The notes beneath the pieces are model-generated. The model was not told the origin of the DNA and did not search any database. It saw only the letters and a list, made by a program, of their open reading frames with translations. Of a stretch of 64,000 nucleotides of DNA, positions 5,661 to 55,614 are shown piece by piece. A program made the position numbers and the translations under genes. The first letter of the stretch is position 1, and each line of letters starts with the position of its first letter. Origin of the DNA: a phage; NCBI GenBank assembly GCA_018093385.1, contig GCA_018093385.1_4808.1. One strand, written 5' to 3'.

Positions 5661-7994
5661 TTATTTCGCTGATTTCAGCGCGGCTATCTCTGCCTCTAGT
5701 GATTCAACCTTTTTCATCAACTCCTGCACCACGTGCATCGTGTCAAGAAGCATTGGAGTTGTGTCTAGTTGTTTTTGTTCAACCTCTACGCCTTCGCTCG
5801 GATAGAATTTCACCGTTTTTACATACAACGGGTCAATAATCTCTGCTTGTTGAGCGATGACACCCCTTCTTACCCTTTCCTTTTCATCATTGTTGTAAAT
5901 AAATGTCACATATTCCAACGATGAAAGGTTGCTCCATGCTTTTTCAACCGTTCCTGGCTGTATGTCATGCTTCAAATTCTCATCAGAGATGGCATTCTTT
6001 TGAAGAGTATAAAAGCTATCTGATCCAAGAATTGATACAGAGAAAAACACATCATGAGAGTTAGGCTGTATGTTCATCCTTGTCTGGTACTGCGCATTAT
6101 CATCTCCAACGACGAGCCAAGTGCCCTGCGCAAAACTTCCGTTATTGTTGTGGATCAAACCGTGGTGAAGCGTTGTGGCATAACCTGTATCAACCTGTTG
6201 ACCGCCGCTAAAAAGACTGTTGAAAGCATAGTTTTGACCCATTGACTGTCTCACCGTTGCATAGGTGCCGATTCTTGTTCCAGTCTCACTCCAAGACATT
6301 AAGCTTCCATATCTCGCGGCGAATCTGTCGCTGCTAAGAGTTCCTGCATCATCAAATGCAAGGTCTTTAGTCACCCCTTTTGTTTTATTGTACACAGACA
6401 GTATTGCATAATAAAATCCATCCATGTATGCATCGCATCGCAATCCGGCATCAGCTTCAACAACAGTACCAATTTTGTATTGTGCCCTTACTTGCCCTGA
6501 AGACCCCTTAACCCCAGAGCCTGGTCGAACAGAATCCGCATTGATAACTGACCATTGCGTATTCGCGGCAACAAAGCCACCAGATGCACGAATCACCCAA
6601 ACACCGACAAAGTTGCGCGGCACGATTTCAGCCGCTGATCTTCCGTATACAGGGCTTGATCGAGAAGCGTCAAAGTTTGTTTGTATGAATCTTGAACCAG
6701 AACCTGCTGCTGCTGGAGAGTCCCCAGAAGTGATCGACTGAAAAGCGCCATTAGTCGCCACCTGACTTGGCGCAGAAGCCAACGTGACCATTGTGCGCGG
6801 CGCGGAGTAAGTTATATTTGGTGCACCTGACTCAGAAACGACTCCATTTGATGATGGATTGCCTCCATCACCTCGACCGAACAGGGCCTGAATAGAACCC
6901 GTCTGCACGCCGTTTCGGTCCGGCACACGAAATGTTGTCGTTCCGTTACCTAAAGAGTATTTACCGCGTTTCGCTGGGTCCGCTAACCAATCTGCATCTG
7001 CAATAGGTGAAAGCATTTGCGCATACGCCCAAAGTTCAGGCCAGTCAGCGCGGTTTAACAACTGCCCATCAGCAACGACTTCATACGGTTGAATATAAGC
7101 ACGGCTGTCGCGTAAGTGGAAGTCACCGACGCCATAGTTCATAACGCCGTTCATACTTGGTCCAACGGTGCCTGTGTTTACTAAGTTCTCAACCCAACGC
7201 TTGGTCGCGGCATCATGATCGTTTACTGGGTCACCAGCAAGCGGTGTTGCACCTTGTGGACGAATATTCAACCATGCTTGCGCATTGTCGGCTGACCCTG
7301 TGCCGCCCATAGAAGTCGGAACGATGTTTTGATCAGCGACTGTGCCAAATCCAAAAGCGGACTTCATACCCTGAATGGTAGTTTGGCCTGTGCCGCCGTT
7401 GGCGACTGGGATTATGCTTGACTCGGAATAAATCATGACCCAAGGAGACCACGTGCTATTTTGAGCGTTGAATCTTCTTTGGTAAGTATTGTTAATGGAA
7501 TATGATGTGTATTTTTGAATGCAACTTTCGGTCGATACTCCTGTTTGCAACACCTCTAAGACTCCTGCTTGTTCAACAGGATAGTTCAATCCAAAAGAGG
7601 CGGCGCCATCAGAGTTCTGATAATATTGCCCAAACCAGCTGCCGGTAAGAGCATTAAGATTCATGCCGGAAGGAACAGTGCCAAAATTTCGCAAGGTATT
7701 GGTCAAAGTCGCAGCAGTTGTTCGAATGGAAAGCATGTCACCAGCCGCCCATGCACGCGCTGCAGTTCCTTCCTGCGCACGCTGCACGGTTAGCACGTTT
7801 CCAACTACGGCTGTTACTGTGACGATTTCAAATTGGAGGCCTGTTGCAGCGTCGACGATTGTCGCCACTACACGCTCGTTCGCGGCCAAGGTCGGAAAGC
7901 CCGACCCTGAGCGGATTGTGATTGTGGTGTCTGAAGTCGTCGTTGGCTGGGCAAGCGCGACCTCAAAGTTGTTTTTGAATATTAGCCTTGGCAT
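5661..7994 (-). CDS. Tail fibre/tailspike protein with C-terminal intramolecular chaperone (peptidase S74-like) domain
   Basis: C-terminus LKHDIQP...GVIAQQAEIIDP...coiled-coil tail matches the self-cleaving chaperone module; Gly/Ser/Thr-rich body. Confidence 0.7.
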   Translation of the reverse strand: MPRLIFKNNFEVALAQPTTTSDTTITIRSGSGFPTLAANERVVATIVDAATGLQFEIVTVTAVVGNVLTVQRAQEGTAARAWAAGDMLSIRTTAATLTNTLRNFGTVPSGMNLNALTGSWFGQYYQNSDGAASFGLNYPVEQAGVLEVLQTGVSTESCIQKYTSYSINNTYQRRFNAQNSTWSPWVMIYSESSIIPVANGGTGQTTIQGMKSAFGFGTVADQNIVPTSMGGTGSADNAQAWLNIRPQGATPLAGDPVNDHDAATKRWVENLVNTGTVGPSMNGVMNYGVGDFHLRDSRAYIQPYEVVADGQLLNRADWPELWAYAQMLSPIADADWLADPAKRGKYSLGNGTTTFRVPDRNGVQTGSIQALFGRGDGGNPSSNGVVSESGAPNITYSAPRTMVTLASAPSQVATNGAFQSITSGDSPAAAGSGSRFIQTNFDASRSSPVYGRSAAEIVPRNFVGVWVIRASGGFVAANTQWSVINADSVRPGSGVKGSSGQVRAQYKIGTVVEADAGLRCDAYMDGFYYAILSVYNKTKGVTKDLAFDDAGTLSSDRFAARYGSLMSWSETGTRIGTYATVRQSMGQNYAFNSLFSGGQQVDTGYATTLHHGLIHNNNGSFAQGTWLVVGDDNAQYQTRMNIQPNSHDVFFSVSILGSDSFYTLQKNAISDENLKHDIQPGTVEKAWSNLSSLEYVTFIYNNDEKERVRRGVIAQQAEIIDPLYVKTVKFYPSEGVEVEQKQLDTTPMLLDTMHVVQELMKKVESLEAEIAALKSAK

Positions 7995-8032: not shown

Positions 8033-8374
8033 TTAATTTCTTTTGAGAGGAATATGACGGTGGCTGCCATTATTTGGTTTAATAATGAGCATAAAAACGA
8101 TTAGAAAGATGATGGCTGATATACTTAATTCAATCAGCGCGGCTTGAGATATAGATTGATCTTCATGATACTGCTTTTGCATTTCTGCTTTCTTCTGAGC
8201 GCAAACTTCAGGTGATATGTAATCGCCTTTTGAGTTGCCATAATAAATTTCGCCATTCTCAGAAATAAGCCTGCCGCAAATATCCGTTTCAGCCTGTGCG
8301 CTTGACATCATAATAACAGTTCCGATGATAGCGGCGATAGTCCAGATTAACAGTTGTGATAAAGTGTTGTTCAT
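8033..8374 (-). CDS. Secreted/membrane-anchored small protein
   Basis: Start MNNTLSQLLIWTIAAIIGTVIMMSSAQA with AGAGG SD; C-terminal hydrophobic segment. Confidence 0.5.
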   Translation of the reverse strand: MNNTLSQLLIWTIAAIIGTVIMMSSAQAETDICGRLISENGEIYYGNSKGDYISPEVCAQKKAEMQKQYHEDQSISQAALIELSISAIIFLIVFMLIIKPNNGSHRHIPLKRN

Positions 8375-27129: not shown

Positions 27130-29310
27130 GTGTCTGACTCATTAGAAAAATTTGTGCTTCAATATACGGTGGACTTGAAAGAGTCCATCAATCGTCTTGA
27201 GCAATTGCAAGATAAAGTTGATCAGACAAACAAAAAGGCGAAATCCGCTGGAAAAGATTTCTCTGGAGCATTCAAAGATGTTTTTGGCGAGCTAAAGCCG
27301 CTTACTGGTGAGCTAGGGTCAATTGACGGAATACTTGCGCGGCTGACATATCGTTTTGCCGCGCTTGTTCCTGTGGTAGCAGGATTGGCTGTCGTCGTCA
27401 AATCCATCGTTGATGTTCGAAAAGAATACGAAGCGCAAAGAAAGCTTGGTTTTGAAGCCGGACTGTCTCCAATGGGTGTCGAACAACTACAACGACAGTT
27501 GAATGAAAGTTCAGGTGGCATCCTTGGCGCACAGGGGTCGCGCGATTTAATCAGCAAAGCTTCTAATCTGGCATTCAATGCATACACCAACCCCGATGTG
27601 ATGAACAAGGACAACTTGTTGTTGAACAAGATGGGGACAAGTCCTTTCAACAGTAACGGCGGCATCAAAGACACGAATCAGCTGCTTGATGAAATTGGAA
27701 CAAAGCTGAGAAGTGTTAATGAGCAAACCGCTCGTGCCATTGGTGCTTTGGCAGGATTCACGGCTGATGAAGTCCGCGCCCTTCGTGAGCGCAACCAGTC
27801 TGTGAAAGAAAGCACCCGTATAAGCGACGAAGAAACCGCGAAGCTGCAAAGACAGCAAGCTGCTCTTGAGACTATACGAAATAGTATGGGGCAAATTCAA
27901 GAAGATTGGCGGCGTATTGAGTTGGTAATTGGTGAAAATGTCATGCCTGCATTCTCGACTCTTGTCAGCAAAACTGCTGATACAGTCGAAGGATTCCAGA
28001 TGATGTTTCAGAGAATGTCTGACGGATGGAGCGAATTTGTCGACAACTTCATCGCTGACTTGAAACATCCGTTTGACAAGCAGGCCGCTGTCAACGAACG
28101 TCACGAAAGAGCGGTTGACCGATGGATCACCCAAATGGCTGATGGCGATGTTAAACGCCAAAGGAATCAAGAACAGAACGCTGCTGAACAACGTTCTGCA
28201 CAGGCTCTTTTTACTCGTGATATAAATCTTTTTTCAAGTGCTGTGTCAACCTTTGCTGGCGTGATTGATGAGCGTCAAGCTTGGGCGGCATGGGCAGGTG
28301 AAATCGGGCGCAGCGCAGGGCAATCCGCGATGCCTGGAACACCAGCATTGAATACTGGCGCGACCGTAGGGAATAATCTTGGGTCAGGGAATCCGACAGC
28401 ATATGACTCAATATATGAGGAAGCTTCAAAACGCTATGGCATACCTGTAGCGATGATGAAGGCTGTAACTGAAGTCGAATCTGGATTCAATCCAAATGCT
28501 GTGAGCGGAGCAGGCGCGACTGGTTTGATGCAAATCATGCCTTCTAACTTCAAGGGTCTTGGAATAACAGATGGTAATGATCCTCGACAAAACATTATGG
28601 GCGGCGCTCAACTTTTGAAAGAGTATCTTAACGCCGCCAACGGCGATTGGAATCTTGCGCTGACGATGTATCACGGCGGCTACGACCGAAGCGGCTGGGG
28701 CAAGAACACACGCGCGTATCCTGGAAAGGTGATGGCCGCTCTCGACCGACAATCCAATGGCGAGTATGCCACGGCAGCGCCGCAAGGTGCACCAGTTACT
28801 CCAGTACTTAGCGGTAGCGGAGCGGAAGCGCCAAAGGGCCGTTATGCACCAGTACAAGGTCAATCGCGCCAAACGGTGCAATACAGGCAATTGCAAGAAG
28901 CCATTGCAGGATACCTGAACGTACCAGTTGAGCAGTTGATGCAGGGACAAGTCAACAAAGGTGATATTGACTTTGCTCAAACTTACCTTAAGCTTGGCAC
29001 GCAAAGGGATTATATTAAAAACATGCAACTGGCTTCAACTCCAGGTGTAAGACCGAACATTCAAGCCGAAGCTATGAAAAACGCTCGTCTTGCTGCATTC
29101 CAACTTGAAGCATTTCAGAAATACGGCGGCGACCTTTCCGCGAATAGTCGACCTGGTGGGCGTGATATTACTATGGGTCAGAAAAACGTTGTCATCAACG
29201 TCAACGGCGCTCAAGACCCACGCAGCACGGCATTCGAAACGAAACGAGTGCTTGAACAAGATGATATAAACGACATAAACAACCTTACTGCTACACCTTT
29301 GAAGTGGTGA
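27130..29310 (+). CDS. Tail tape measure protein with lytic transglycosylase (SLT) domain (GTG start)
   Basis: Coiled-coil-rich N-half; SLT motif TEVESGFNPNAVSGAGATGLMQIMPSNF. Confidence 0.75.
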   Translation: MSDSLEKFVLQYTVDLKESINRLEQLQDKVDQTNKKAKSAGKDFSGAFKDVFGELKPLTGELGSIDGILARLTYRFAALVPVVAGLAVVVKSIVDVRKEYEAQRKLGFEAGLSPMGVEQLQRQLNESSGGILGAQGSRDLISKASNLAFNAYTNPDVMNKDNLLLNKMGTSPFNSNGGIKDTNQLLDEIGTKLRSVNEQTARAIGALAGFTADEVRALRERNQSVKESTRISDEETAKLQRQQAALETIRNSMGQIQEDWRRIELVIGENVMPAFSTLVSKTADTVEGFQMMFQRMSDGWSEFVDNFIADLKHPFDKQAAVNERHERAVDRWITQMADGDVKRQRNQEQNAAEQRSAQALFTRDINLFSSAVSTFAGVIDERQAWAAWAGEIGRSAGQSAMPGTPALNTGATVGNNLGSGNPTAYDSIYEEASKRYGIPVAMMKAVTEVESGFNPNAVSGAGATGLMQIMPSNFKGLGITDGNDPRQNIMGGAQLLKEYLNAANGDWNLALTMYHGGYDRSGWGKNTRAYPGKVMAALDRQSNGEYATAAPQGAPVTPVLSGSGAEAPKGRYAPVQGQSRQTVQYRQLQEAIAGYLNVPVEQLMQGQVNKGDIDFAQTYLKLGTQRDYIKNMQLASTPGVRPNIQAEAMKNARLAAFQLEAFQKYGGDLSANSRPGGRDITMGQKNVVINVNGAQDPRSTAFETKRVLEQDDINDINNLTATPLKW

Positions 29311-37316: not shown

Positions 37317-37961
37317 ATGATTAATGCAAACGTAATATCTAAAGGGACCGGATGCAGCATGGATGTTGCTGAAAAATGGGTCGACCCCTTCAAGCAGGCT
37401 TGTGAGCACTACGGAATCAAAAGCAAGAATGCCATCGCGGCGCTGCTTGCAAACGTAGGAGTGGAAACAGGCAGTCTGAAGACCTTTGTGGAAAACCTGA
37501 ATTATTCCGCTCAAGGTCTTGCTAATACGTGGCCTAGCCGTTACAGCGCCAGCGGTCGTTTCGGTGGCGCACCAAACTCCTTGGCATTGTCGATTGCCCG
37601 TAAACCAATGGAAATCGCCAATAATACATATGCAAACCGAATGGGAAATGGTTCGGTAGCATCTGGCGACGGTTGGAAGTACCGTGGCCGTGGTGCCATT
37701 CAGCTGACTGGAAAGGACAACTATGCAGAGTATTCAAAGCAATCAGGGTATGACGCATTGAATAACCCTGACATTTTGACTGAGCCGAAATACATTGCTG
37801 ACAGCGCGGCATGGTTCTTCAAGAACAGCGGTTGCATTCCACTTGCCGATGCGGGCGCATTTGATTCGACCGTGAAGCGGATTAACGGGGCCGCGCCAAA
37901 TACGGCTAACCATGGGGATTTGCGACGGAAGCGTTACAAGGGAGCACTAGCAGTTATGTAA
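37317..37961 (+). CDS. Endolysin, glycoside hydrolase family 19-like
   Basis: GWKYRGRGAIQLTGKDNY resembles the GH19 core; AAGGTGA SD. Confidence 0.65.
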   Translation: MINANVISKGTGCSMDVAEKWVDPFKQACEHYGIKSKNAIAALLANVGVETGSLKTFVENLNYSAQGLANTWPSRYSASGRFGGAPNSLALSIARKPMEIANNTYANRMGNGSVASGDGWKYRGRGAIQLTGKDNYAEYSKQSGYDALNNPDILTEPKYIADSAAWFFKNSGCIPLADAGAFDSTVKRINGAAPNTANHGDLRRKRYKGALAVM

Positions 37962-37962
37962 G

Positions 37963-37993
37963 AAAAAGGCCCATATGGGCCTTTGTTTATTTT
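37963..37993. terminator. Bidirectional rho-independent terminator (AAAGGCCC-ATAT-GGGCCTTT, T-run after)
   Basis: Perfect palindrome between convergent genes. Confidence 0.75.
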
Positions 37994-38217
37994 ACGGCTT
38001 CAACCTGGACGGGCGGCGCGGAACTTGTATCAATGTCTGGCAAGTCGAAGTAATACCCCGCCATGCCAATCACGCCAACAATCGCGGCCCGTGCCACCTT
38101 GTTGCTAATTGACTCCCCAATAAGCTTTACCAACAGGGACAAGATTTGAGACGTCAAAGCCTTTTTCAGCCTTTTGTTTTCTTCCAAATCTTTCTGCATA
38201 ACTACCACCCATGTCAA
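37987..38217 (-). CDS. Small hypothetical protein with short hydrophobic segment
   Basis: 76 aa. Confidence 0.4.
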   Translation of the reverse strand: MTWVVVMQKDLEENKRLKKALTSQILSLLVKLIGESISNKVARAAIVGVIGMAGYYFDLPDIDTSSAPPVQVEAVK

Positions 38218-38756
38218 CGCACATCCTGTGTCTTAACATTACCTGAAGCATCTCTTAAGGGCAGTGGATAGTAGGCCATTTGGTAGTCTGATACGCCTTC
38301 AACATGATAAAACACGATTACGTCTTTGCTGTTGATGAGCATGTTAACGACATCTGATTTATCTTCTGGAGTGAGTATGAGTGCGCCGCCTGTCCTGCTG
38401 TCTACTGCAACAGGGTATGTCTTGTCGACAAGGCCGCTGTCCAATGTATTATACCTGACAACGATTTCAGGGGCATCAACTTTTGCAATTGACATTCCGA
38501 ACACAAACGACACGACTTGGCGACCGCGATCATTCATTACGCACATCTTTTCCTTGTCAAACCTTTCCTTTATCACATCGTATTTGTTCCAGCAAAATTC
38601 GAACGATTGACCGTTGTTAAAATATCTCGTTAACACTTTGGCATTACTATTTGGCGGCGTAAACATACTTTCAGCCGCTGCACTTTTGGTGAAGAACAAA
38701 ACTGTCAGCATAGCCATGATGATGATCAAAACGATCTTTAAATTTTTCGATTTCAT
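38214..38756 (-). CDS. Secreted protein (signal peptide)
   Basis: Lys-rich start then hydrophobic core ending AAA; AAAGGTG SD. Confidence 0.5.
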   Translation of the reverse strand: MKSKNLKIVLIIIMAMLTVLFFTKSAAAESMFTPPNSNAKVLTRYFNNGQSFEFCWNKYDVIKERFDKEKMCVMNDRGRQVVSFVFGMSIAKVDAPEIVVRYNTLDSGLVDKTYPVAVDSRTGGALILTPEDKSDVVNMLINSKDVIVFYHVEGVSDYQMAYYPLPLRDASGNVKTQDVR

Positions 38757-48263: not shown

Positions 48264-48292
48264 TACAAAAAGGCCGCCCATTAGGACGGCCA
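48264..48292 (-). terminator. Rho-independent terminator between the enzyme island and the exonuclease gene
   Basis: GGCCGTCC-loop-GGGCGGCC followed by TTTTTG on minus strand. Confidence 0.55.
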
Positions 48293-48307: not shown

Positions 48308-48859
48308 TTATACAGTGTACGGAGTACCGTCTTGATTTAAGCGCACGATAAACTTCAAATCAACGCCGATGATTTCACGCGTATCAAAGATCACATAGTT
48401 GTAACGACGTTGACCAGCAATGTTCGGGTTGGTATGAGAGTCAGTTACAACTTCCTGTGCAACCTGAATACCTTCTTCGCTAAAGAACTTACGCCATTCA
48501 GCAAGTTCAGCGGCAGTCACGTGCATACCAAGGTGGCTGACCTGATTGTCATGCGCATCGATATATTCGATGTTTTCGTTAATCCAGTTGCAGCCCATTG
48601 TGTAGTCAAGGATTTCAAGCTCAAGAGGCTTACCAGCGCCGCCATCAGTACCGTTGCCAGCCTGATAGTTGAAGCGCAAGTCAGCTTCATTGGTGCAATC
48701 GTCGCGACGACCTTTAAAGTCATCAGCTTCAAATACGCGACCAGTAGCAACAACATGATCATGGAACCATTCTGTCAGGCCGATTTTAGCCAAGAAATCC
48801 TGTGCGCGCTGAGCATCTGGAATTGACAGGGCGATTTGTTCAATTTTAAAATGTGGCAT
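48308..48859 (-). CDS. VOC-fold (glyoxalase/dioxygenase-like) protein, putative
   Basis: Two beta-alpha-beta-like modules; weak motif-level call. Confidence 0.35.
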   Translation of the reverse strand: MPHFKIEQIALSIPDAQRAQDFLAKIGLTEWFHDHVVATGRVFEADDFKGRRDDCTNEADLRFNYQAGNGTDGGAGKPLELEILDYTMGCNWINENIEYIDAHDNQVSHLGMHVTAAELAEWRKFFSEEGIQVAQEVVTDSHTNPNIAGQRRYNYVIFDTREIIGVDLKFIVRLNQDGTPYTV

Positions 48860-48955
48860 TTTGTTTCCTTAATTAAATATTATTGATTAATTACTGTGTT
48901 GTCTTCGTCCTGTTTCTTTTCAGGAGCGGGTGTGACAACTTCAAATGTTCGTGAT

Positions 48956-49639
48956 TTATTTACCAAATGGAATATCAGTACCAGACATAAAGCGCCATGC
49001 GCCTGTAATTAAGATATGGCGAATGAAGTCAGCAATTACTTGCGGCTCAGTCTCCAATCCATTCATCAATGCCTTTTTCTGGTATTCAGCGGCGTATTCA
49101 GGAGTCCAGCCGCGAGTCGCGCAAACTGCATCTTCAATCTGTTTAGACATGCCAGTGCCGCGCAACTTGTTAGGACTAATAGAGAATACCGTGATGCCGT
49201 ACTTAGGCGTAAGTTCGTGAGCCATCTGCTTGCTGATCATAAGCGCAGCGGCCTTGGATGCATTATAACACAAGCTGGACGTCATAGGAATATGCGCAGC
49301 GTTGGAAACGATGTTGATCACAAAGCCTTTGTTGTCGATAAGACTTTTCAGCGCAGCCTGAGTCGTGTTAACGAAAGAGAATGCGTTGGTGTGCATAACG
49401 CGGTTAAACTCTTCATAGTTTACATCTTCAAACCAATTGTTAGAGTTGACACCAGCACAGTTGATCAAGCCTTCAACATCATATGGGCTTAAAATTTCTT
49501 TCATCTGTTTAGCATCGCGGACGTCATATCCGTATGCTGAATCGATGCCAAGCACGTTATGACCGTAAGCGCCAAGGGTGTCAAAAATAGATTTACCAAG
49601 ACCGGAATTGGAACCTGTTACAACAATTACTTTTTTCAT
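48956..49639 (-). CDS. Short-chain dehydrogenase/reductase (classical SDR)
   Basis: TGSNSGLG, NCAG, YNASK motifs. Confidence 0.7.
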   Translation of the reverse strand: MKKVIVVTGSNSGLGKSIFDTLGAYGHNVLGIDSAYGYDVRDAKQMKEILSPYDVEGLINCAGVNSNNWFEDVNYEEFNRVMHTNAFSFVNTTQAALKSLIDNKGFVINIVSNAAHIPMTSSLCYNASKAAALMISKQMAHELTPKYGITVFSISPNKLRGTGMSKQIEDAVCATRGWTPEYAAEYQKKALMNGLETEPQVIADFIRHILITGAWRFMSGTDIPFGK

Positions 49640-49660
49640 TTATTTATCCTTTTTGGACTT

Positions 49661-49704
49661 CGTTTCGATGAGGTAAATATAACTCATCGAAACGCACAAG
49701 TAAA
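49661..49704 (-). promoter_or_regulatory. Promoter TTTACT-N17-TATATT with 12-bp perfect inverted repeat (49661-49672 / 49683-49694) centred on the -10
   Basis: Read directly on minus strand upstream of SDR gene. Confidence 0.5.
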
Positions 49705-50580
49705 CTATTTATTGAAATTAATATTATGGGTGTTTACAAGACGTTCACACATGGCGCTATAAACACCATCGTCGTGTATTGAGTCTTCGTGCTTCAGGCC
49801 GCTGATTGCGAAGCGTGTAAGCTTGACAATCTTAAGCTCGAACAGATGCCACATGTGGTAGTCTTCCGGTGTTTTCAGCGTCACGCCATTAGGGAACAGT
49901 ACCTGCATAACCTGACCTACCATCACAGCGTTATCGCCATAGACAGCGTTGCGCTCACGGAAGGTCGCGGCCATCGCATCAAGAATATCGGCGGCGGTTG
50001 CTGGGCCTTGTGGTTCAACTTCAACAACTTTAGTCTCTTCTTTCCCTGTTGCGCTTGGATCAACTGCTAATTGCTGCACCATTTCACCTGCCTTGCAAAG
50101 ATTAAATGTAAAAGCGATTTTATTTTGAGCAACGGAATTATAATACAAGGCTTCATCTTGCATCGCCGCGAGTACGTCTTGTCGGTCGTCGAATACATTA
50201 ATGATTCGATAATCGCCGTGCCGCAAAGCGTGCGATAGCCATCCAGATTTCATAATAGTTGATGGACGTTTGTCGCCAGAGTCTCTCATCTTGATTGTAA
50301 ATTCATCAAAAGGGAAAACATTGTCCAGACGTTCAAAAGTCACTTGTCTGTATTTTTCTGGCCTTGCAGTCCAATATTCAACCGCCTCACCGCGAAGAGA
50401 TGCCGACTCTACTGCTGATGCAATGTGAGGATAGAACTGATCATAACCAATACCGCTGTGATAGTCATCATAGTCTGACAACGGACCTGCCACCTTGATG
50501 CGGTCTAAGCGCCAACGGTCATCAAACAGCGTTCCGTCAAGGTCGAATACGTTTAAGATTTCGCTGTTTTTAATGCTCAT
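49705..50580 (-). CDS. HAD-superfamily phosphatase-like protein with uncharacterised C-terminal domain
   Basis: HAD motif I DLDGTL near N-terminus. Confidence 0.5.
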   Translation of the reverse strand: MSIKNSEILNVFDLDGTLFDDRWRLDRIKVAGPLSDYDDYHSGIGYDQFYPHIASAVESASLRGEAVEYWTARPEKYRQVTFERLDNVFPFDEFTIKMRDSGDKRPSTIMKSGWLSHALRHGDYRIINVFDDRQDVLAAMQDEALYYNSVAQNKIAFTFNLCKAGEMVQQLAVDPSATGKEETKVVEVEPQGPATAADILDAMAATFRERNAVYGDNAVMVGQVMQVLFPNGVTLKTPEDYHMWHLFELKIVKLTRFAISGLKHEDSIHDDGVYSAMCERLVNTHNINFNK

Positions 50581-51380
50581 CCTTTTGATACTCCATCTTT
50601 AGCAACTGGATTGTTGGTGATTGGCATTGCACTCCAAAACTGGATGCGCAACTCTTCTTGCTGTGCCGTGGTATCCATCCAATCACGATACCAAGGGCAA
50701 TGGGCTTTGCCATGACGAGGAAACGCGCACTTACCCATACCGATGCACTGGGGCTGTAGTAAAGGATTGGCCCACGGGTGCACCTTAAGGACTTCCGCAA
50801 CCATTGCACGGAATACTTCTTGATACTCGCCTTGAGTACGCGTGCACAAGCGGTTAGAGGCCATTTGTTGCAGAGTGCGCAAGTTGAACTTTGCCATGAT
50901 ATGCGTTTGCATATTAGAAGGCAACACGGCACGTGCATCTTGAATCTCTGCGCCAGCCGCGCGAAGTTCTTGGTATAGGGCGTCAATGGTTGCCATTGCA
51001 TCATCCCATTTCTCTGCCAGTTCAGCAGCCTTCTCGTCATGACGAGTCCATCCCTTTGGATCATCCTCTGGGTAAGTAAATTTGGCAGGACGAATCGCAT
51101 CAAATGCTGACGACTCCTGAGCGCGGCTTGTGCGTTCTTGATATGCACCTGTGCGTGTGCGCACCATCTGATGAGTCATATTCTTTGATACATCAGTGAT
51201 GTCAAAGATATAGTCCACAAAGTCAAAAGGCGACTTGATTGTATCAAGCATGTAGCGCCAGTGCTCTTGCTTCTCTGATTCTGTCATCTCAGAGACTGGC
51301 TTACCAGTCATGCGCGTGTTCTTTGTTTCCAGCAAAAGGTCAAGTGCATCTTGGGTGTATCGAATTAATTCAACTTTCAT
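50577..51380 (-). CDS. thyX: Flavin-dependent thymidylate synthase (ThyX-like)
   Basis: VRTRTGAYQERTSR resembles the ThyX RHR...S...R signature. Confidence 0.55.
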   Translation of the reverse strand: MKVELIRYTQDALDLLLETKNTRMTGKPVSEMTESEKQEHWRYMLDTIKSPFDFVDYIFDITDVSKNMTHQMVRTRTGAYQERTSRAQESSAFDAIRPAKFTYPEDDPKGWTRHDEKAAELAEKWDDAMATIDALYQELRAAGAEIQDARAVLPSNMQTHIMAKFNLRTLQQMASNRLCTRTQGEYQEVFRAMVAEVLKVHPWANPLLQPQCIGMGKCAFPRHGKAHCPWYRDWMDTTAQQEELRIQFWSAMPITNNPVAKDGVSKG

Positions 51381-51393
51381 TTTAATTATCCTA

Positions 51394-51840
51394 TTAACGG
51401 TAATTCACTAGTTGCTGATCACCAGAGAAGGTGCAATGATAAACGAATTGTGCGTTATAAAGCAACTGAAAACTTTTCTTTGGTTCATTATTAGAACTCA
51501 TTGATGTAAAGATTTCTGCACCAGAACGGTTTTCACCAATCAGGTTAATAAAGCCGCCAGTTGAACGAGGCTGAACGAAAGTGAAACGCTGCATCCACGG
51601 AGTCCGGTTGGCACCTTTTCCGGTGAATCCCTGAATCTGAATATTCAGACCTTCTTGCTCGTTCACACCGATGTAAGTGGTAATTGTTGCGCCAGTCGTC
51701 GCTGCGGTCTTGCCGTCCATCGCTTCGCAATCGTAAACAGCGATTGAATCGGAAGTACGGACAGCGGCTTCAGTCGCTTCCATATACATGGTTCCGAGAA
51801 TAGCAGTCGCGGCAAGCGCGATTCCAGTGATGCGTTTCAT
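51394..51840 (-). CDS. Secreted protein of unknown function
   Basis: Signal peptide MKRITGIALAATAILGTMYMEATEAA; AGAGGAAA SD. Confidence 0.5.
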   Translation of the reverse strand: MKRITGIALAATAILGTMYMEATEAAVRTSDSIAVYDCEAMDGKTAATTGATITTYIGVNEQEGLNIQIQGFTGKGANRTPWMQRFTFVQPRSTGGFINLIGENRSGAEIFTSMSSNNEPKKSFQLLYNAQFVYHCTFSGDQQLVNYR

Positions 51841-51858
51841 TTTCGTTTCCTCTATGAG

Positions 51859-51905
51859 TTCTGCTTCAATGATTAAAGTATACGCCCATTGAAGCAGAAA
51901 GCAAA
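51859..51905 (-). promoter_or_regulatory. Promoter TTTGCT-N17-TATACT with 13-bp perfect inverted repeat (51859-51871 / 51887-51899) flanking the -10
   Basis: Read directly; same architecture as 49661-49704. Confidence 0.5.
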
Positions 51906-52901
51906 TTATTTATTAGCAATATAAGCAAATTTTTGATAGTTATTTGCTTTGATGAGTTTTTCAACTTCAGCAAGGTCATGAGCGACGTCATCAAGCAAAA
52001 TGTTTCGCCAAGTAGCGAATCGACCGACACTAAATACGTTCAAATCCATAGTCAACTGGAGCAGTAAGGCGTGGCGCAAGTCTTTCGGAATGTCGACAAT
52101 TTTGCCATACTTCTGGTCAACCTTTTCAACTTCTTCCAAAGAGATGTCATTCCATGAAAGACCAAAAGCGGTAAGAACTTCATCCACTTCTGCACGCAGC
52201 TTCATGTCGCGATAACGGGTAATGCCGCCAGCGGCTTCAACTGCTGCCGCGCTGACGCTTACCAATGGAATTGTTTCAATGATCAGCGTGTCACCAGTGA
52301 TTGATGCGCGGTAAGTCCTTACAGAATAGTCAGGGAAGTAAATTGTTTGATAAAGTTCACACTTGCGCTTAATCTTAAAACGATAAACGCGAATATTTGC
52401 CTTATCAAACGAGAAGTCGAGCTTTTGATCAATACCAGCAAGCTTCATCATGACTGGCAGCGGCGATGTGTTGATGATTGGCGTCTCGCTATAGCCGCAA
52501 AGCGTGTCGACCGGAGTATTAAAGAATATACGGTCACCCAGTTTATCGACAAGTTGATCATAAAAGTCATCCGGCGCTATGTAGCGCGTAGCAGTTTGAA
52601 GCTTCATGATTGAGCGGCTGCCAAACTGGTTGGTGACTTTCATAGAGTACATATTGGCAAGGTTAATCGGGCAGTGGCCGTGATAGTAGTTGCCACGAAA
52701 ATACACAGCCTTATCGACTGTCACGGCCTTAAAGGGGATTCCGGTAATACGGCTTACTTCTTCGCCGCGAAATCGTAGCAGCGCCTTGTGCTGCGCGACG
52801 CGTTCGCCTGCTTCGTACACAATAGAGTTCGGAAAGTGACAAGCCGTGATAAGTCCTGCCAGTCCGCCGCCGATAATCATTACAGGTTGTTTCATGTTCA
52901 T
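51906..52901 (-). CDS. FAD/NAD(P)-binding oxidoreductase (UDP-galactopyranose mutase / amine-oxidase-like fold, putative)
   Basis: N-terminal Rossmann IIGGGLAGL; C-terminal GRFATWRNILLDDV resembles the family tail. Confidence 0.5.
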   Translation of the reverse strand: MNMKQPVMIIGGGLAGLITACHFPNSIVYEAGERVAQHKALLRFRGEEVSRITGIPFKAVTVDKAVYFRGNYYHGHCPINLANMYSMKVTNQFGSRSIMKLQTATRYIAPDDFYDQLVDKLGDRIFFNTPVDTLCGYSETPIINTSPLPVMMKLAGIDQKLDFSFDKANIRVYRFKIKRKCELYQTIYFPDYSVRTYRASITGDTLIIETIPLVSVSAAAVEAAGGITRYRDMKLRAEVDEVLTAFGLSWNDISLEEVEKVDQKYGKIVDIPKDLRHALLLQLTMDLNVFSVGRFATWRNILLDDVAHDLAEVEKLIKANNYQKFAYIANK

Positions 52902-52978: not shown

Positions 52979-53006
52979 GAAAAAAGACCCACAACTAGTG
53001 TGGGTC
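52979..53006 (-). terminator. Rho-independent terminator (GACCCACA-loop-TGTGGGTC, U6 on minus strand)
   Basis: Perfect 8-bp stem and AAAAAA on plus strand. Confidence 0.7.
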
Positions 53007-53034: not shown

Positions 53035-53877
53035 TTATTCTGCTTGATCGTCGTGCTCTTCGGCATCTGCTTCGGATTCAACATCGATGAACTCGATGTG
53101 GCCCATCTCTTCCAGTTTGCTCAGGTAAGAGCGAACTGAAGCGCCAAACAGCTGATCTTTAACTTTTTCACCCAGCTCGTCGATAGACTGCGGCTGACCG
53201 ATTTCACCTTCTTTGATCGCAGCCAGTACGCGACCACGGGTGGAATGTTCTTGCGGCTGGCTCAGGCCGTTTCCGGTGTAAACAAAGTGAGTTGCTTTAG
53301 CGCGACGCTGACCATTAGCTTTCTTGGCGGCTTTACGCTCTGCAATCGCTTTGCGACGCTCTTCAGCTTCTTTCTTACGCTGTTCTTTCTGTTGTTCTGC
53401 AGCTTCTTTCGCCGCGATCTTAGCAGCTTCACGCTCTGCCTTGCGTTTCGCTTTCGCTTCTTCTTTAGCCTTTTCTTTTTCGGCTTTCGCTTCTGCACGG
53501 GCCTGATCACGTTCAGCCTTTTTCGCCGCAGCTTGTTCAGCTTTCAGGCGCTTGGCTTCTTCTTTCGCCTTTGCCTTTTCAATTTCTTTAGCGGCTTTAG
53601 CGGCTTCACGCTCTGCCTTCTTAGCAGCAGCCTTTTCAGCACGCTCTGCAGCCTTCTTAGCGGCTTCTTCAGCACGCTTCTGAGCCTTCTCGTCAGCAGC
53701 CTGCTTGCGTTTCAGCGCAGCTTCTTCACGCTTGGCTTGTTTTTCCTGCTCACGCTTCTGGCGTTTTTCTTCGGCTTCTTTCTTTTTAGCCAGGCGTTTT
53801 TCTTCAGCCACGCGACGACGTTCTGCTGCGGCTGCTTGTTTTTCTTCTTTAGATAATACTTTGATTGCTTCGGCCAT
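53035..53877 (-). CDS. Lys/Ala/Glu-rich low-complexity protein with globular C-terminal domain
   Basis: About 190 aa of KAE repeats then about 85 aa of normal composition; ATG 53877 has AAGGA SD (ORF track 53883 is GTG). Confidence 0.5.
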   Translation of the reverse strand: MAEAIKVLSKEEKQAAAAERRRVAEEKRLAKKKEAEEKRQKREQEKQAKREEAALKRKQAADEKAQKRAEEAAKKAAERAEKAAAKKAEREAAKAAKEIEKAKAKEEAKRLKAEQAAAKKAERDQARAEAKAEKEKAKEEAKAKRKAEREAAKIAAKEAAEQQKEQRKKEAEERRKAIAERKAAKKANGQRRAKATHFVYTGNGLSQPQEHSTRGRVLAAIKEGEIGQPQSIDELGEKVKDQLFGASVRSYLSKLEEMGHIEFIDVESEADAEEHDDQAE

Positions 53878-54036
53878 ATTCACAGTCCTTAAATAAATTA
53901 GTTTATTTTATATTCCCCGTTTGGGATAACTTAATTATGCCTTCAGTCGCCGCCAGTAGCAACTAAAAACTATGGCGGCAATGCCACTTTAATTAAACTG
54001 ATTTTCAGTTTTATTTTTCGTAAATTTACGTCAACA

Positions 54037-55585: not shown

Positions 55586-55614
55586 AGTATAATTGCAGAT
55601 ATAGTATAAAGCAA
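55586..55614 (-). promoter_or_regulatory. Promoter TTGCTT-N17-TATACT
   Basis: Divergent intergenic region. Confidence 0.45.

What the first reader, a model, noticed from the sequence alone, without database searches (positions are those of the whole stretch)
51394..51840. Secreted 148-aa protein encoded between ThyX and the FAD oxidoreductase
A signal-peptide protein of unknown fold is co-transcribed with cytoplasmic nucleotide enzymes. Two further signal-peptide proteins occur at 8033-8374 and 38214-38756. A secreted product in this context is unexpected and could be a host-interaction or exclusion factor.
Basis: inference. Interest (0 to 1): 0.45.

Follow-up and report, generated by a model that had tools for sequence, protein, structure and literature searches.

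The report
Small exported beta-barrel protein of Wifcevirus phages
The gene is real and encodes a small protein that an E. coli phage almost certainly exports to the periplasm, the space between the two bacterial membranes, where it folds into a disulfide-stapled beta-barrel; it may block rival phages, but its function is untested and the case is only moderately unusual.

Summary
The window is a Wifcevirus, an E. coli myovirus 97% identical to phage Bas101. The ORF at 51394-51840 (- strand, 148 aa) is a real gene. It has a strong ribosome-binding site and dN/dS of 0.07. It is present in all 29 sequenced Wifcevirus genomes, always annotated as hypothetical.

It matches no Pfam, PHROG, NCBIfam, PADLOC or PDB sequence family. 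Exhaustive searches found only three divergent relatives (28-36% identity), all in uncultured sister phages and all in the same position.

All four lineages keep a Sec-type signal peptide (MKR, hydrophobic core, small residues at -3/-1). One lineage carries a different, shorter signal peptide on a nearly identical mature domain, which argues for a cleaved export signal rather than a membrane anchor. The two cysteines are invariant.

The gene sits in a variable accessory slot behind a conserved promoter-like element. It evolves far faster than its neighbours, and virion mass spectrometry did not detect it.

Best reading: an early periplasmic binding or inhibitor protein, possibly a Spackle-like superinfection-exclusion factor. 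That function is not shown.

The parts
51394..51840 (-). Complete CDS of the 148-aa precursor, stop codon included. It is the orthologue of vBEco4M7_81, CPT_Mansfield_071 and Bas101_0050.
   Evidence: dN/dS 0.067
51766..51840 (-). Predicted Sec/SPase I signal peptide, residues 1-25 (MKRITGIALAATAILGTMYMEATEA), with predicted cleavage TEA|AV.
   Evidence: Translation; hydropathy. The cleavage column aligns with VGA|A, VGA|G and ATA|G in the homologues. P0004 carries a different 18-aa signal peptide on a closely similar mature domain.
51397..51765 (-). Mature domain, residues 26-148 (13.6 kDa, pI 6.8), predicted to be an eight-stranded up-and-down beta-barrel with one short helix.
51727..51729 (-). 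Codon of Cys38, invariant, on strand beta-1.
   Evidence: The strand registers 28-40 and 132-147 place C38 opposite C136 (inference).
51433..51435 (-). Codon of Cys136, invariant, on strand beta-8. It is the predicted disulfide partner of Cys38.
51848..51852 (-). Shine-Dalgarno sequence GAGGA, 8 nt upstream of the ATG.
   Evidence: the homologues have GAGGTG at the equivalent place
51877..51904 (-). Conserved promoter-like element TTGCTT-N16-TATACT directly upstream of the gene.
   Evidence: 2 matches in the window against 0.05 expected. Both hexamers are invariant across four lineages. The match is too weak for the generic sigma-70 scan.
51859..51899 (-). A 14-bp inverted repeat (hairpin) spanning the -10 element, with no T-run after it. 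Its role is unknown.
   Evidence: -19.1 kcal/mol, z = -3.9. Hairpins also occur at the same place in L010 and L011, in a different register.
52986..53006 (-). Intrinsic-terminator-like site upstream of the FAD-oxidoreductase gene. It marks the upstream boundary of the transcription block.
   Evidence: terminators are annotated at the equivalent place in Mansfield and WFH
48272..48291 (-). Intrinsic-terminator-like site after the glyoxalase-like gene. It marks the downstream boundary of the block that contains the target.

Best explanation
The gene encodes a precursor that the host Sec system exports. Signal peptidase I cleaves it after Ala25. The result is a soluble periplasmic protein of about 13.6 kDa that folds into a small eight-stranded up-and-down beta-barrel, closed by a Cys38-Cys136 disulfide between the first and last strands.

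It is a lineage-specific accessory gene of Wifcevirus and three uncultured sister lineages. It sits in a variable slot at the head of the ThyX transcription unit, behind its own conserved promoter-like element. It has no functional link to the nucleotide enzymes beyond shared, probably early or middle, timing.

The most likely mechanism is inferred, not shown. The protein would act in the periplasm as a binding or inhibitor protein that protects the infected cell's envelope. That would make it a functional analogue of T4 Spackle and of the bacterial MliC/PliC beta-barrel inhibitors. One candidate target is the SLT-domain lytic transglycosylase carried by the tails of superinfecting phages of the same kind.

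Confidence by step:
- real gene: about 0.98
- exported with a cleaved signal peptide: about 0.8
- soluble eight-stranded barrel: about 0.7
- superinfection-exclusion or muralytic-enzyme-inhibitor role: about 0.25-0.3
For: **Real gene.** It is conserved in 29 of 29 genomes, with dN/dS 0.067 and a strong ribosome-binding site.

**Export.**
- The n/h/c regions and the -3/-1 rule hold in all four lineages.
- P0004 has a different, shorter signal peptide (MKRLILAVAMLSSFAATA|GEY) on a mature domain closely similar to that of P0003. Its 12-residue h-region is too short for a membrane span.
- The 19-residue hydropathy is below the membrane-helix threshold.
- The two invariant cysteines lie in register across strands 28-40 and 132-147.

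**Fold.**
- Two AlphaFold runs give the same topology, and pLDDT rises to 75 (pTM 0.71) for the mature domain.
- The hydrophobic face of each strand holds most of the conserved aromatic and Cys residues. The polar faces are charged and vary between lineages.

**Accessory status and fast evolution.**
- The slot is empty or filled with unrelated ORFs in Pluto, WR01 and SN.
- The protein is 32% identical to its L010 homologue, against 69-89% for six of the seven neighbouring genes compared; the HAD phosphatase is the exception at 47%.
- No homologue was found in one genome for each of 185,579 bacterial and archaeal species.

**Not in the virion.** It is absent from mass spectrometry of vB_Eco4M-7 (100% identical protein) and ECML-117, although those data do include non-structural proteins.

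**A plausible target exists.** A 726-aa SLT-domain protein at 27130-29310 is detected in virions.

**Precedent.** T4 Spackle is an early, signal-peptide-cleaved periplasmic protein with one disulfide. It inhibits the tail lysozyme gp5. Bacterial lysozyme inhibitors are beta-rich proteins (PMC7677548).
Against: - No signal-peptide predictor could be run, and cleavage is unverified.
- The alignment behind the structure model holds only four lineages, so pLDDT is moderate.
- There is no hit to Pfam MliC (PF09864) or any other family.
- The MliC/PliC loop motifs, as I recall them, are not conserved. Only an 'SGA' tripeptide occurs in the Wifcevirus protein, and the serine is missing in the other lineages.
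- No interaction, expression-timing or phenotype data exist for this gene. The BASEL study reports nothing on superinfection exclusion for Wifcevirus.
- Strong purifying selection within the genus shows constraint. It does not point to any particular function.
Confidence: 0.3

Rival explanations
1. Periplasmic ligand-binding (calycin-like) barrel. The protein binds a small hydrophobic or envelope-derived molecule, such as a polyisoprenoid-linked O-antigen or peptidoglycan precursor, a lipid or a cofactor. It thereby remodels the envelope or receptor display rather than inhibiting an enzyme.
Against: The mature domain (101-123 aa) is smaller than typical lipocalins or YceI. No lipocalin or avidin family hit was found by sequence. 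Remodelling of existing surface glycan is hard to achieve in a short lytic cycle (inference).
Confidence: 0.2
2. Regulator of the phage's own lysis. The periplasmic protein restrains the phage's own muralytic enzymes or holin until the right time, in the manner of an antiholin or immunity protein.
For: The protein has a periplasmic location and a fold shared with peptidoglycan-hydrolase inhibitors and T6SS immunity proteins. The phage encodes a GH19 endolysin and an SLT protein.
Against: The gene lies 13 kb from the endolysin, in the replication and nucleotide block, not in a lysis cassette. Related genera with homologous replication and nucleotide-metabolism genes lack it. In T4, the early protein Spackle does not act on the late endolysin.
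Confidence: 0.1
3. Signal-anchored membrane protein. The N-terminal hydrophobic segment is not cleaved and tethers the barrel to the outer face of the inner membrane.
For: The Wifcevirus h-region is fairly long at 17 residues. T at -3 together with E at -2 is a less canonical cleavage site than in the homologues.
Against: Hydropathy is below the membrane-helix threshold. The homologues have canonical VGA|A, VGA|G and ATA|G sites. P0004 has only a 12-residue h-region.
Confidence: 0.1
4. Miniature outer-membrane beta-barrel, like the lambda Lom / OmpX / Ail family, inserted by the BAM complex.
Against: Three strands (97-103, 109-114, 123-128) are only 6-7 residues long, with about three hydrophobic positions on one face, which is too short to span the outer membrane. 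The protein ends in R, TK or RK, not in a terminal aromatic residue. The buried-face cysteine pair and the 101-123-aa mature size are atypical for such barrels.
Confidence: 0.05
5. Cytoplasmic partner of the nucleotide enzymes, or a Cap15-like cyclic-nucleotide sponge. On this reading the hydrophobic N-terminus is not an export signal.
Against: The positive-inside rule and the signal-peptide features place the barrel outside the cytoplasm. The cysteine pair is invariant. The slot is variable in related genera that keep the enzymes. There is no PADLOC or Pfam hit, and identity to Cap15 is only 10%.
Confidence: 0.03

Closest known systems
Bacteriophage T4 Spackle (gp61.3)
   Same: Both are small proteins of a virulent E. 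coli myovirus, encoded among replication genes. Spackle is made early, exported with a cleaved signal peptide, and is a soluble periplasmic protein with a single disulfide. It acts by binding the tail-borne peptidoglycan hydrolase of superinfecting phages (PMC7677548). The first group of properties is predicted for the protein here.
   Different: Spackle is a 75-aa alpha-helical bundle, whereas this protein is a predicted 123-aa beta-barrel. There is no sequence similarity and no PHROG hit. The Wifcevirus tail enzyme is an SLT (GH23) transglycosylase rather than a T4-type lysozyme. The function here is untested.
Bacterial MliC/PliC lysozyme inhibitors (Pfam PF09864) and related small periplasmic inhibitors (PhiA, Neisseria ACP, T6SS immunity protein BtaiB)
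   Different: There is no Pfam hit in any of the four lineages, and identity is 4-9%. The family's inhibitory loop motifs, as I recall them, are not conserved here. Other barrels (Cap15, designed barrels) score higher, so the resemblance is at fold level only.
Cap15 cyclic-dinucleotide receptor beta-barrel (CBASS effector, PDB 7n34)
   Different: Cap15 is a bacterial defence effector with a transmembrane region, and its barrel senses a cytoplasmic nucleotide signal (my own knowledge). Here the topology signals and the disulfide place the barrel in the periplasm. Identity is 10%, and there is no PADLOC hit.
Phage T5 Llp and the Cor-type lipoproteins (receptor-blocking exclusion proteins)
   Same: These are early, exported, small, disulfide-containing proteins of virulent phages that protect the infected cell or the progeny. 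The T5 Llp paper was found.
   Different: They are lipoproteins anchored in the outer membrane and bind the protein receptor FhuA. This protein has no lipobox, and Wifceviruses use O-antigen as receptor.

Membership tests
Sec-dependent, signal peptidase I-cleaved secretory proteins | Positively charged n-region followed by a hydrophobic h-region of roughly 7-17 residues | tested here: met
   The window protein has MKR plus 17 residues, with 15-residue mean hydropathy 1.82. The same layout occurs in P0002 and P0003, and P0004 has a 12-residue h-region.
Sec-dependent, signal peptidase I-cleaved secretory proteins | Small neutral residues at -3 and -1 of the cleavage site | tested here: met
   The sites TEA|A, VGA|A, VGA|G and ATA|G fall in the same alignment column, and A at -1 is invariant.
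Sec-dependent, signal peptidase I-cleaved secretory proteins | Not a lipoprotein (no lipobox Cys) and not a Tat substrate (no twin arginine) | tested here: met
   The first cysteine is residue 38, preceded by VYD, and there is no RR in the n-region.
Sec-dependent, signal peptidase I-cleaved secretory proteins | Demonstrated cleavage and periplasmic localisation | not testable with these tools
   This needs SignalP or DeepTMHMM, PhoA fusions, cell fractionation and N-terminal sequencing.
MliC/PliC lysozyme inhibitor family (PF09864) | Eight-stranded antiparallel beta-barrel of about 80-110 residues in the periplasm | tested here: met
MliC/PliC lysozyme inhibitor family (PF09864) | Match to the family's sequence profile | tested here: not met
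   No Pfam hit at E <= 0.1 for the window protein or at E <= 1 for P0002 and P0003. P0004 was not scanned against Pfam.
MliC/PliC lysozyme inhibitor family (PF09864) | Conserved inhibitory loop motifs (SxSGAxY and YxxxTKG, recalled from memory) | tested here: not met
   Only 'RSGAEI' occurs, in Wifcevirus. The serine is deleted in the other three lineages, and there is no TKG motif. The motif definition rests on my own knowledge.
MliC/PliC lysozyme inhibitor family (PF09864) | Inhibition of a lysozyme or transglycosylase | not testable with these tools
   This needs a biochemical assay with the purified mature protein.
T4 Spackle-type superinfection exclusion proteins | Sequence or fold homology to Spackle (alpha-helical bundle) | tested here: not met
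   There is no PHROG hit, and the predicted fold is all-beta. Spackle's fold is described in PMC7677548.
T4 Spackle-type superinfection exclusion proteins | Early, exported, disulfide-bonded periplasmic protein | tested here: inconclusive
   Export and the disulfide are predicted. Early timing is inferred only from position in the replication and nucleotide block and from a promoter-like element.
T4 Spackle-type superinfection exclusion proteins | Blocks secondary infection | not testable with these tools
   This needs plating and DNA-entry assays on cells that express the gene.
Eight-stranded outer-membrane proteins (OmpX/Ail/Lom, OmpA N-domain) | Membrane-spanning strands of at least about 9-10 residues with continuous lipid-facing hydrophobic stripes | tested here: not met
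   Strands 97-103, 109-114 and 123-128 have 6-7 residues, with only three positions on the hydrophobic face.
Eight-stranded outer-membrane proteins (OmpX/Ail/Lom, OmpA N-domain) | C-terminal beta-signal ending in an aromatic residue | tested here: not met
   The C-termini are ...LVNYR...LVNWTK and ...LVSYRK.
Cap15-type cyclic-nucleotide receptor | Sequence-family membership and a cytoplasmic barrel attached to transmembrane helices | tested here: not met
   There is no PADLOC hit, and identity is 10%. The basic N-terminus and the cysteine pair place the barrel in the periplasm (inference).
Virion structural proteins | Detected in purified particles, or a fold match to a structural protein | tested here: not met
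   The protein is not among the 33 and 28 proteins found by mass spectrometry in vB_Eco4M-7 and ECML-117 (PMC7048862; locus tags mapped). BFVD and PDB gave no structural-protein match.

The most novel reading that the evidence does not exclude
The protein founds a new family of phage-encoded periplasmic beta-barrel inhibitors. These would neutralise the tail-borne SLT lytic transglycosylase, or another envelope-penetration component, of incoming phages. Mechanistically that is a Spackle-like superinfection exclusion system, but built on an MliC/PliC-like scaffold and aimed at a GH23 enzyme. Its rapid divergence between sister genera would reflect an arms race between related phages.
Probability: 0.2. 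Interest if true: 0.55.

Novelty: new variant of a known kind. Interest (0 to 1): 0.33.

Why it matters
Wifceviruses are candidate biocontrol phages against E. coli O157 and only recently became tractable in K-12 (Bas98-101), and most of their genes have no assigned function. This work pins one conserved orphan gene down to an exported, disulfide-stapled periplasmic barrel that evolves faster than its neighbours. That gives a concrete and cheap experiment: express the gene and test for exclusion and for transglycosylase inhibition. If the protein is an exclusion factor or an inhibitor of peptidoglycan-cleaving enzymes, it would add a second, structurally unrelated solution to the problem solved by T4 Spackle. 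It would also matter for designing phage cocktails, because related phages might exclude one another. If the protein only binds a ligand, it is an ordinary accessory gene.

Tried and rejected
**Sequence-family searches, all negative for the target**
- Pfam, PHROGs, NCBIfam and PADLOC gave nothing. Its homologues were also negative where scanned (Pfam for P0002/P0003; PHROGs).
- PDB sequence and profile searches gave nothing significant.
- tblastn against 50,697 phage records found only the 29 Wifceviruses, even at E <= 10.

**Searches for more homologues**
- IMG/VR returned only Wifcevirus contigs.
- JGI metagenomes returned one Wifcevirus fragment.
- One genome for each of 185,579 bacterial and archaeal species returned nothing. 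A host or prophage origin was therefore not supported.

**Structure searches**
- The AlphaFold-database libraries were unavailable, so only PDB and BFVD were searched.
- BFVD gave only the protein's own orthologue plus weak lipocalin hits.

**Readings considered and rejected**
- Functional coupling to ThyX and the FAD-oxidoreductase: rejected because the slot is variable in Pluto, WR01 and SN, which keep both enzymes.
- Lipoprotein, Tat substrate and internal-start (M18/M20) readings: rejected from the sequence and the alignment.
- The intergenic hairpin as a known RNA family: no Rfam hit.

**Other**

Full report
**Identity of the window.** The 2.5 kb around the finding is 91-97% identical to 29 GenBank phages of the genus Wifcevirus. 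These are E. coli and Shigella myoviruses of 66-72 kb, and the closest is VerenaGrendelmeier_Bas101. According to the BASEL study they are distant relatives of Pseudomonas Pbunavirus. [quoted passage not shown]

- ORF 51394..51840 (- strand) encodes 148 aa starting MKRITGIALAATAILGTMYMEATEAAVRTSD. GAGGA lies 8 nt upstream of the ATG.
- It lies between a 331-aa protein with an N-terminal dinucleotide-binding motif (phrog_4828, annotated in phage Mansfield as UDP-galactopyranose-mutase-like) and ThyX (PF02511).
- It is annotated as 'hypothetical protein' in every annotated record.
- tblastn finds it in all 29 Wifcevirus genomes at 94.6-100% identity and nowhere else among 50,697 phage records, even at E <= 10.
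- Across ten genomes the mean dN/dS is 0.067, against 0.028 for the neighbouring oxidoreductase. The ten variable positions carry mostly conservative changes. It is a real gene under purifying selection.

**Family size.**
- There is no hit in Pfam, PHROGs, NCBIfam, PADLOC or PDB sequences.
- An exhaustive HMMER scan of 1.84 billion cluster representatives gave one relative beyond the protein's own cluster: P0002, 129 aa, E = 3.6e-5.
- Profile searches added P0003 (133 aa) and P0004 (126 aa).
- All three come from assembled sequencing runs, on phage contigs of 12.7-72.5 kb with the same gene order. That order is primase, helicase, a Lys/Ala/Glu-rich protein, the FAD-oxidoreductase, the small protein, ThyX, a HAD/PNKP-type phosphatase, a short-chain dehydrogenase, a glyoxalase-like protein, an exonuclease and Pol III alpha.
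- These contigs are sister lineages of Wifcevirus, at 72-77% nucleotide identity over the ThyX-polymerase block.
- No relative was found in IMG/VR beyond Wifcevirus, in JGI metagenomes beyond one Wifcevirus fragment, or in one genome for each of 185,579 bacterial and archaeal species.

**Export signal.** All four lineages start with MKR, followed by an Ala/Ile/Leu/Val/Gly-rich stretch and then a short polar stretch ending in small residues at -3 and -1. In one alignment column the sites read TEA|A, VGA|A, VGA|G and ATA|G.
- The window protein's best 19-residue hydropathy is 1.38, below the usual threshold for a membrane helix.
- There is no lipobox cysteine and no twin arginine.
- The most telling observation concerns P0004. 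Its mature part is closely similar to that of P0003, but its N-terminus is a different and shorter sequence: MKRLILAVAMLSSFAATA, with a 12-residue hydrophobic core.
- Replacement of the sequence with retention of the physico-chemical pattern is what a cleaved signal peptide tolerates. Twelve residues cannot span a membrane.
- I could not run SignalP, so cleavage after Ala25 is a prediction.

**Fold.**
- AlphaFold2 on the full-length four-row alignment gave pLDDT 65 with a disordered N-terminus.
- On the mature domain with five rows it gave pLDDT 75 and pTM 0.71, with the same topology. That topology is eight antiparallel strands in simple up-and-down order, plus a short helix in an insertion that the three shorter homologues lack.
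- The only two cysteines, C38 and C136, are invariant. They sit on the first and last strands (28-40 and 132-147). In an antiparallel register where 28 pairs with 146, residue 38 pairs with 136. A disulfide would therefore staple the barrel seam. This is an inference from the strand limits, because the model coordinates could not be inspected.
- BFVD returned only the Mansfield orthologue and weak lipocalin hits, with no phage structural protein.

**Soluble or membrane barrel?** A strand-by-strand analysis shows one hydrophobic face per strand. That face holds most of the invariant aromatic and Cys residues: Y36, C38, W82, F86, L100, Y128, C136 and L144. The other faces are charged and vary between lineages. 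Three strands have only 6-7 residues. The C-termini end in R, TK or RK rather than an aromatic residue. This fits a soluble barrel with a small hydrophobic core, not an outer-membrane protein.

**Genomic context.**
- The gene is 13 nt upstream of ThyX, and ThyX overlaps the phosphatase gene by 4 nt. Terminator-like hairpins followed by T-runs lie only upstream of the oxidoreductase (52986-53006) and after the glyoxalase-like gene (48272-48291). The small protein is therefore transcribed with the nucleotide enzymes.
- The 65-nt spacer in front of it is unusually conserved. It is identical in three Wifceviruses whose coding regions differ at dS of about 0.3. It retains TTGCTT-N16-TATACT plus TAAT.A..GAAGCAGA in all four lineages.
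- The promoter-like pattern occurs twice in the window, against 0.05 expected. The second copy lies upstream of the helicase operon.
- A 14-bp hairpin spans the -10 element (z = -3.9). It has no Rfam match.
- In the wider family the same junction is empty in Luteibacter phage Pluto, holds an unrelated 86-aa ORF without a signal peptide in Serratia phage WR01, and holds five small ORFs in Pseudomonas phage SN. All three phages keep the flanking enzymes.
- The small protein is also the fastest-evolving gene of the block. It is 32% identical to its L010 homologue, against 69-89% for six of the seven neighbouring genes compared (the HAD phosphatase is 47%). It is undetectable by tblastn in L011 and L023, where ThyX is 84-87% identical.
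- I conclude that it is an accessory gene in a swap-prone slot, not a partner of the enzymes.

**Not a virion component.** Mass spectrometry of purified vB_Eco4M-7, whose protein vBEco4M7_81 is 100% identical, and of ECML-117 listed 33 and 28 proteins. These included non-structural ones from this very block (the 'TolA' protein, the glyoxalase-like protein and the reductase) but not this protein (PMC7048862; mapping). This is weak negative evidence, because a small exported protein could be lost during purification.

**Mechanism.**
- Shown, or strongly predicted: an exported, soluble, disulfide-stapled periplasmic barrel that is specific to one phage lineage, diverges fast between genera and is constrained within a genus.
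- Inferred: it binds something in the cell envelope.
- The closest functional precedent is T4 Spackle. It is an early gene product encoded among replication genes, with a cleaved export signal and one disulfide. It inhibits the tail lysozyme of superinfecting phage. The same paper notes that bacterial lysozyme inhibitors are beta-rich proteins that insert a loop into the active site (PMC7677548).
- Wifcevirus particles carry a 726-aa SLT-domain protein (window 27130-29310; detected in virions). It is a plausible target.
- I therefore rank 'periplasmic inhibitor acting in superinfection exclusion' first, at about 0.25-0.3.
- Next come a ligand-binding calycin-like role (0.2), control of the phage's own lysis (0.1) and an uncleaved signal anchor (0.1). 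An outer-membrane barrel (0.05) and a cytoplasmic role (0.03) are unlikely.
- Nothing here tests the function itself.

**Comparison and verdict.**
- The protein is not a member of any described family. It fails the sequence tests for MliC/PliC, Spackle, Cap15 and OmpX-type proteins, and shares only the generic barrel fold with three of them.
- In kind it belongs with the small exported accessory proteins of virulent phages. So it is a new, very narrow family within a known category.
- The exclusion idea is reasonable but unproven.
- Interest is modest, at about 0.33. It would rise to about 0.55 if the protein proved to be a beta-barrel inhibitor of tail-borne transglycosylases.

Noticed in passing
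window 51841-51905 (- strand); also 55586-55614 (-); L010:1675-1748, L011:9021-9098, L023:9920-10000: The spacer in front of the gene is far more conserved than the coding sequence around it. TTGCTT-N16-TATACT plus TAAT.A..GAAGCAGA is invariant in four lineages. The spacer is 100% identical in three Wifceviruses, and a 14-bp hairpin without a T-run spans the -10 element. The promoter-like pattern recurs upstream of the helicase operon. This may be a phage-specific promoter or operator, or an RNA processing site. There is no Rfam match.
   Followed up: partly
window 48308-52901 (- strand): A block of five enzyme genes is conserved from Wifcevirus to Myosmarvirus, Luteibacter phage Pluto and, in part, Pbunavirus: the FAD-oxidoreductase (phrog_4828, described as UDP-galactopyranose-mutase-like or polyamine-oxidase-like in some records), ThyX, a HAD/PNKP-type phosphatase, a short-chain dehydrogenase and a glyoxalase/VOC-like protein. 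The BASEL study reports that Wifceviruses resist most restriction systems without any known genome protection. This block is a candidate nucleotide or DNA modification pathway.
   Followed up: partly
window 53035-53883 (-) and 48308-48859 (-): The Lys/Ala/Glu-rich 282-aa protein (annotated 'TolA' in some records) and the glyoxalase-like protein were both detected with high scores by mass spectrometry of purified vB_Eco4M-7 (PMC7048862). They are encoded in the replication block. They might be packaged or ejected proteins, or abundant contaminants.
   Followed up: no
window 8033-8374 (-): This is a 113-aa ORF directly downstream of the 777-aa tail fibre gene (5661-7994). It has a hydrophobic N-terminus ending in AQA|E but no basic n-region, two cysteines and a C-terminal membrane helix. 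It is conserved in all 29 Wifceviruses. Its position next to a receptor-binding protein recalls the receptor-blocking exclusion genes of other phages.
   Followed up: partly
window 37987-38756 (-): A 180-aa protein has a strongly hydrophobic signal-peptide-like N-terminus (MKSKNLK, 15 hydrophobic residues, then AAA|E). It overlaps by 4 nt a 76-aa protein with a hydrophobic C-terminal segment (phrog_5165), and both converge on the GH19 endolysin gene (37317-37961). The 180-aa protein has a 38%-identical homologue in Pantoea phage Kyle. These may be lysis or envelope proteins.
   Followed up: partly
window 49705-50580 (-): The HAD/PNKP-type phosphatase is the second most divergent gene of the block, at 36-47% identity to the sister lineages against 64-87% for ThyX and the dehydrogenase. 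Its length varies widely between genera (291 aa here, about 450-475 aa in WR01 and Pluto).
   Followed up: no
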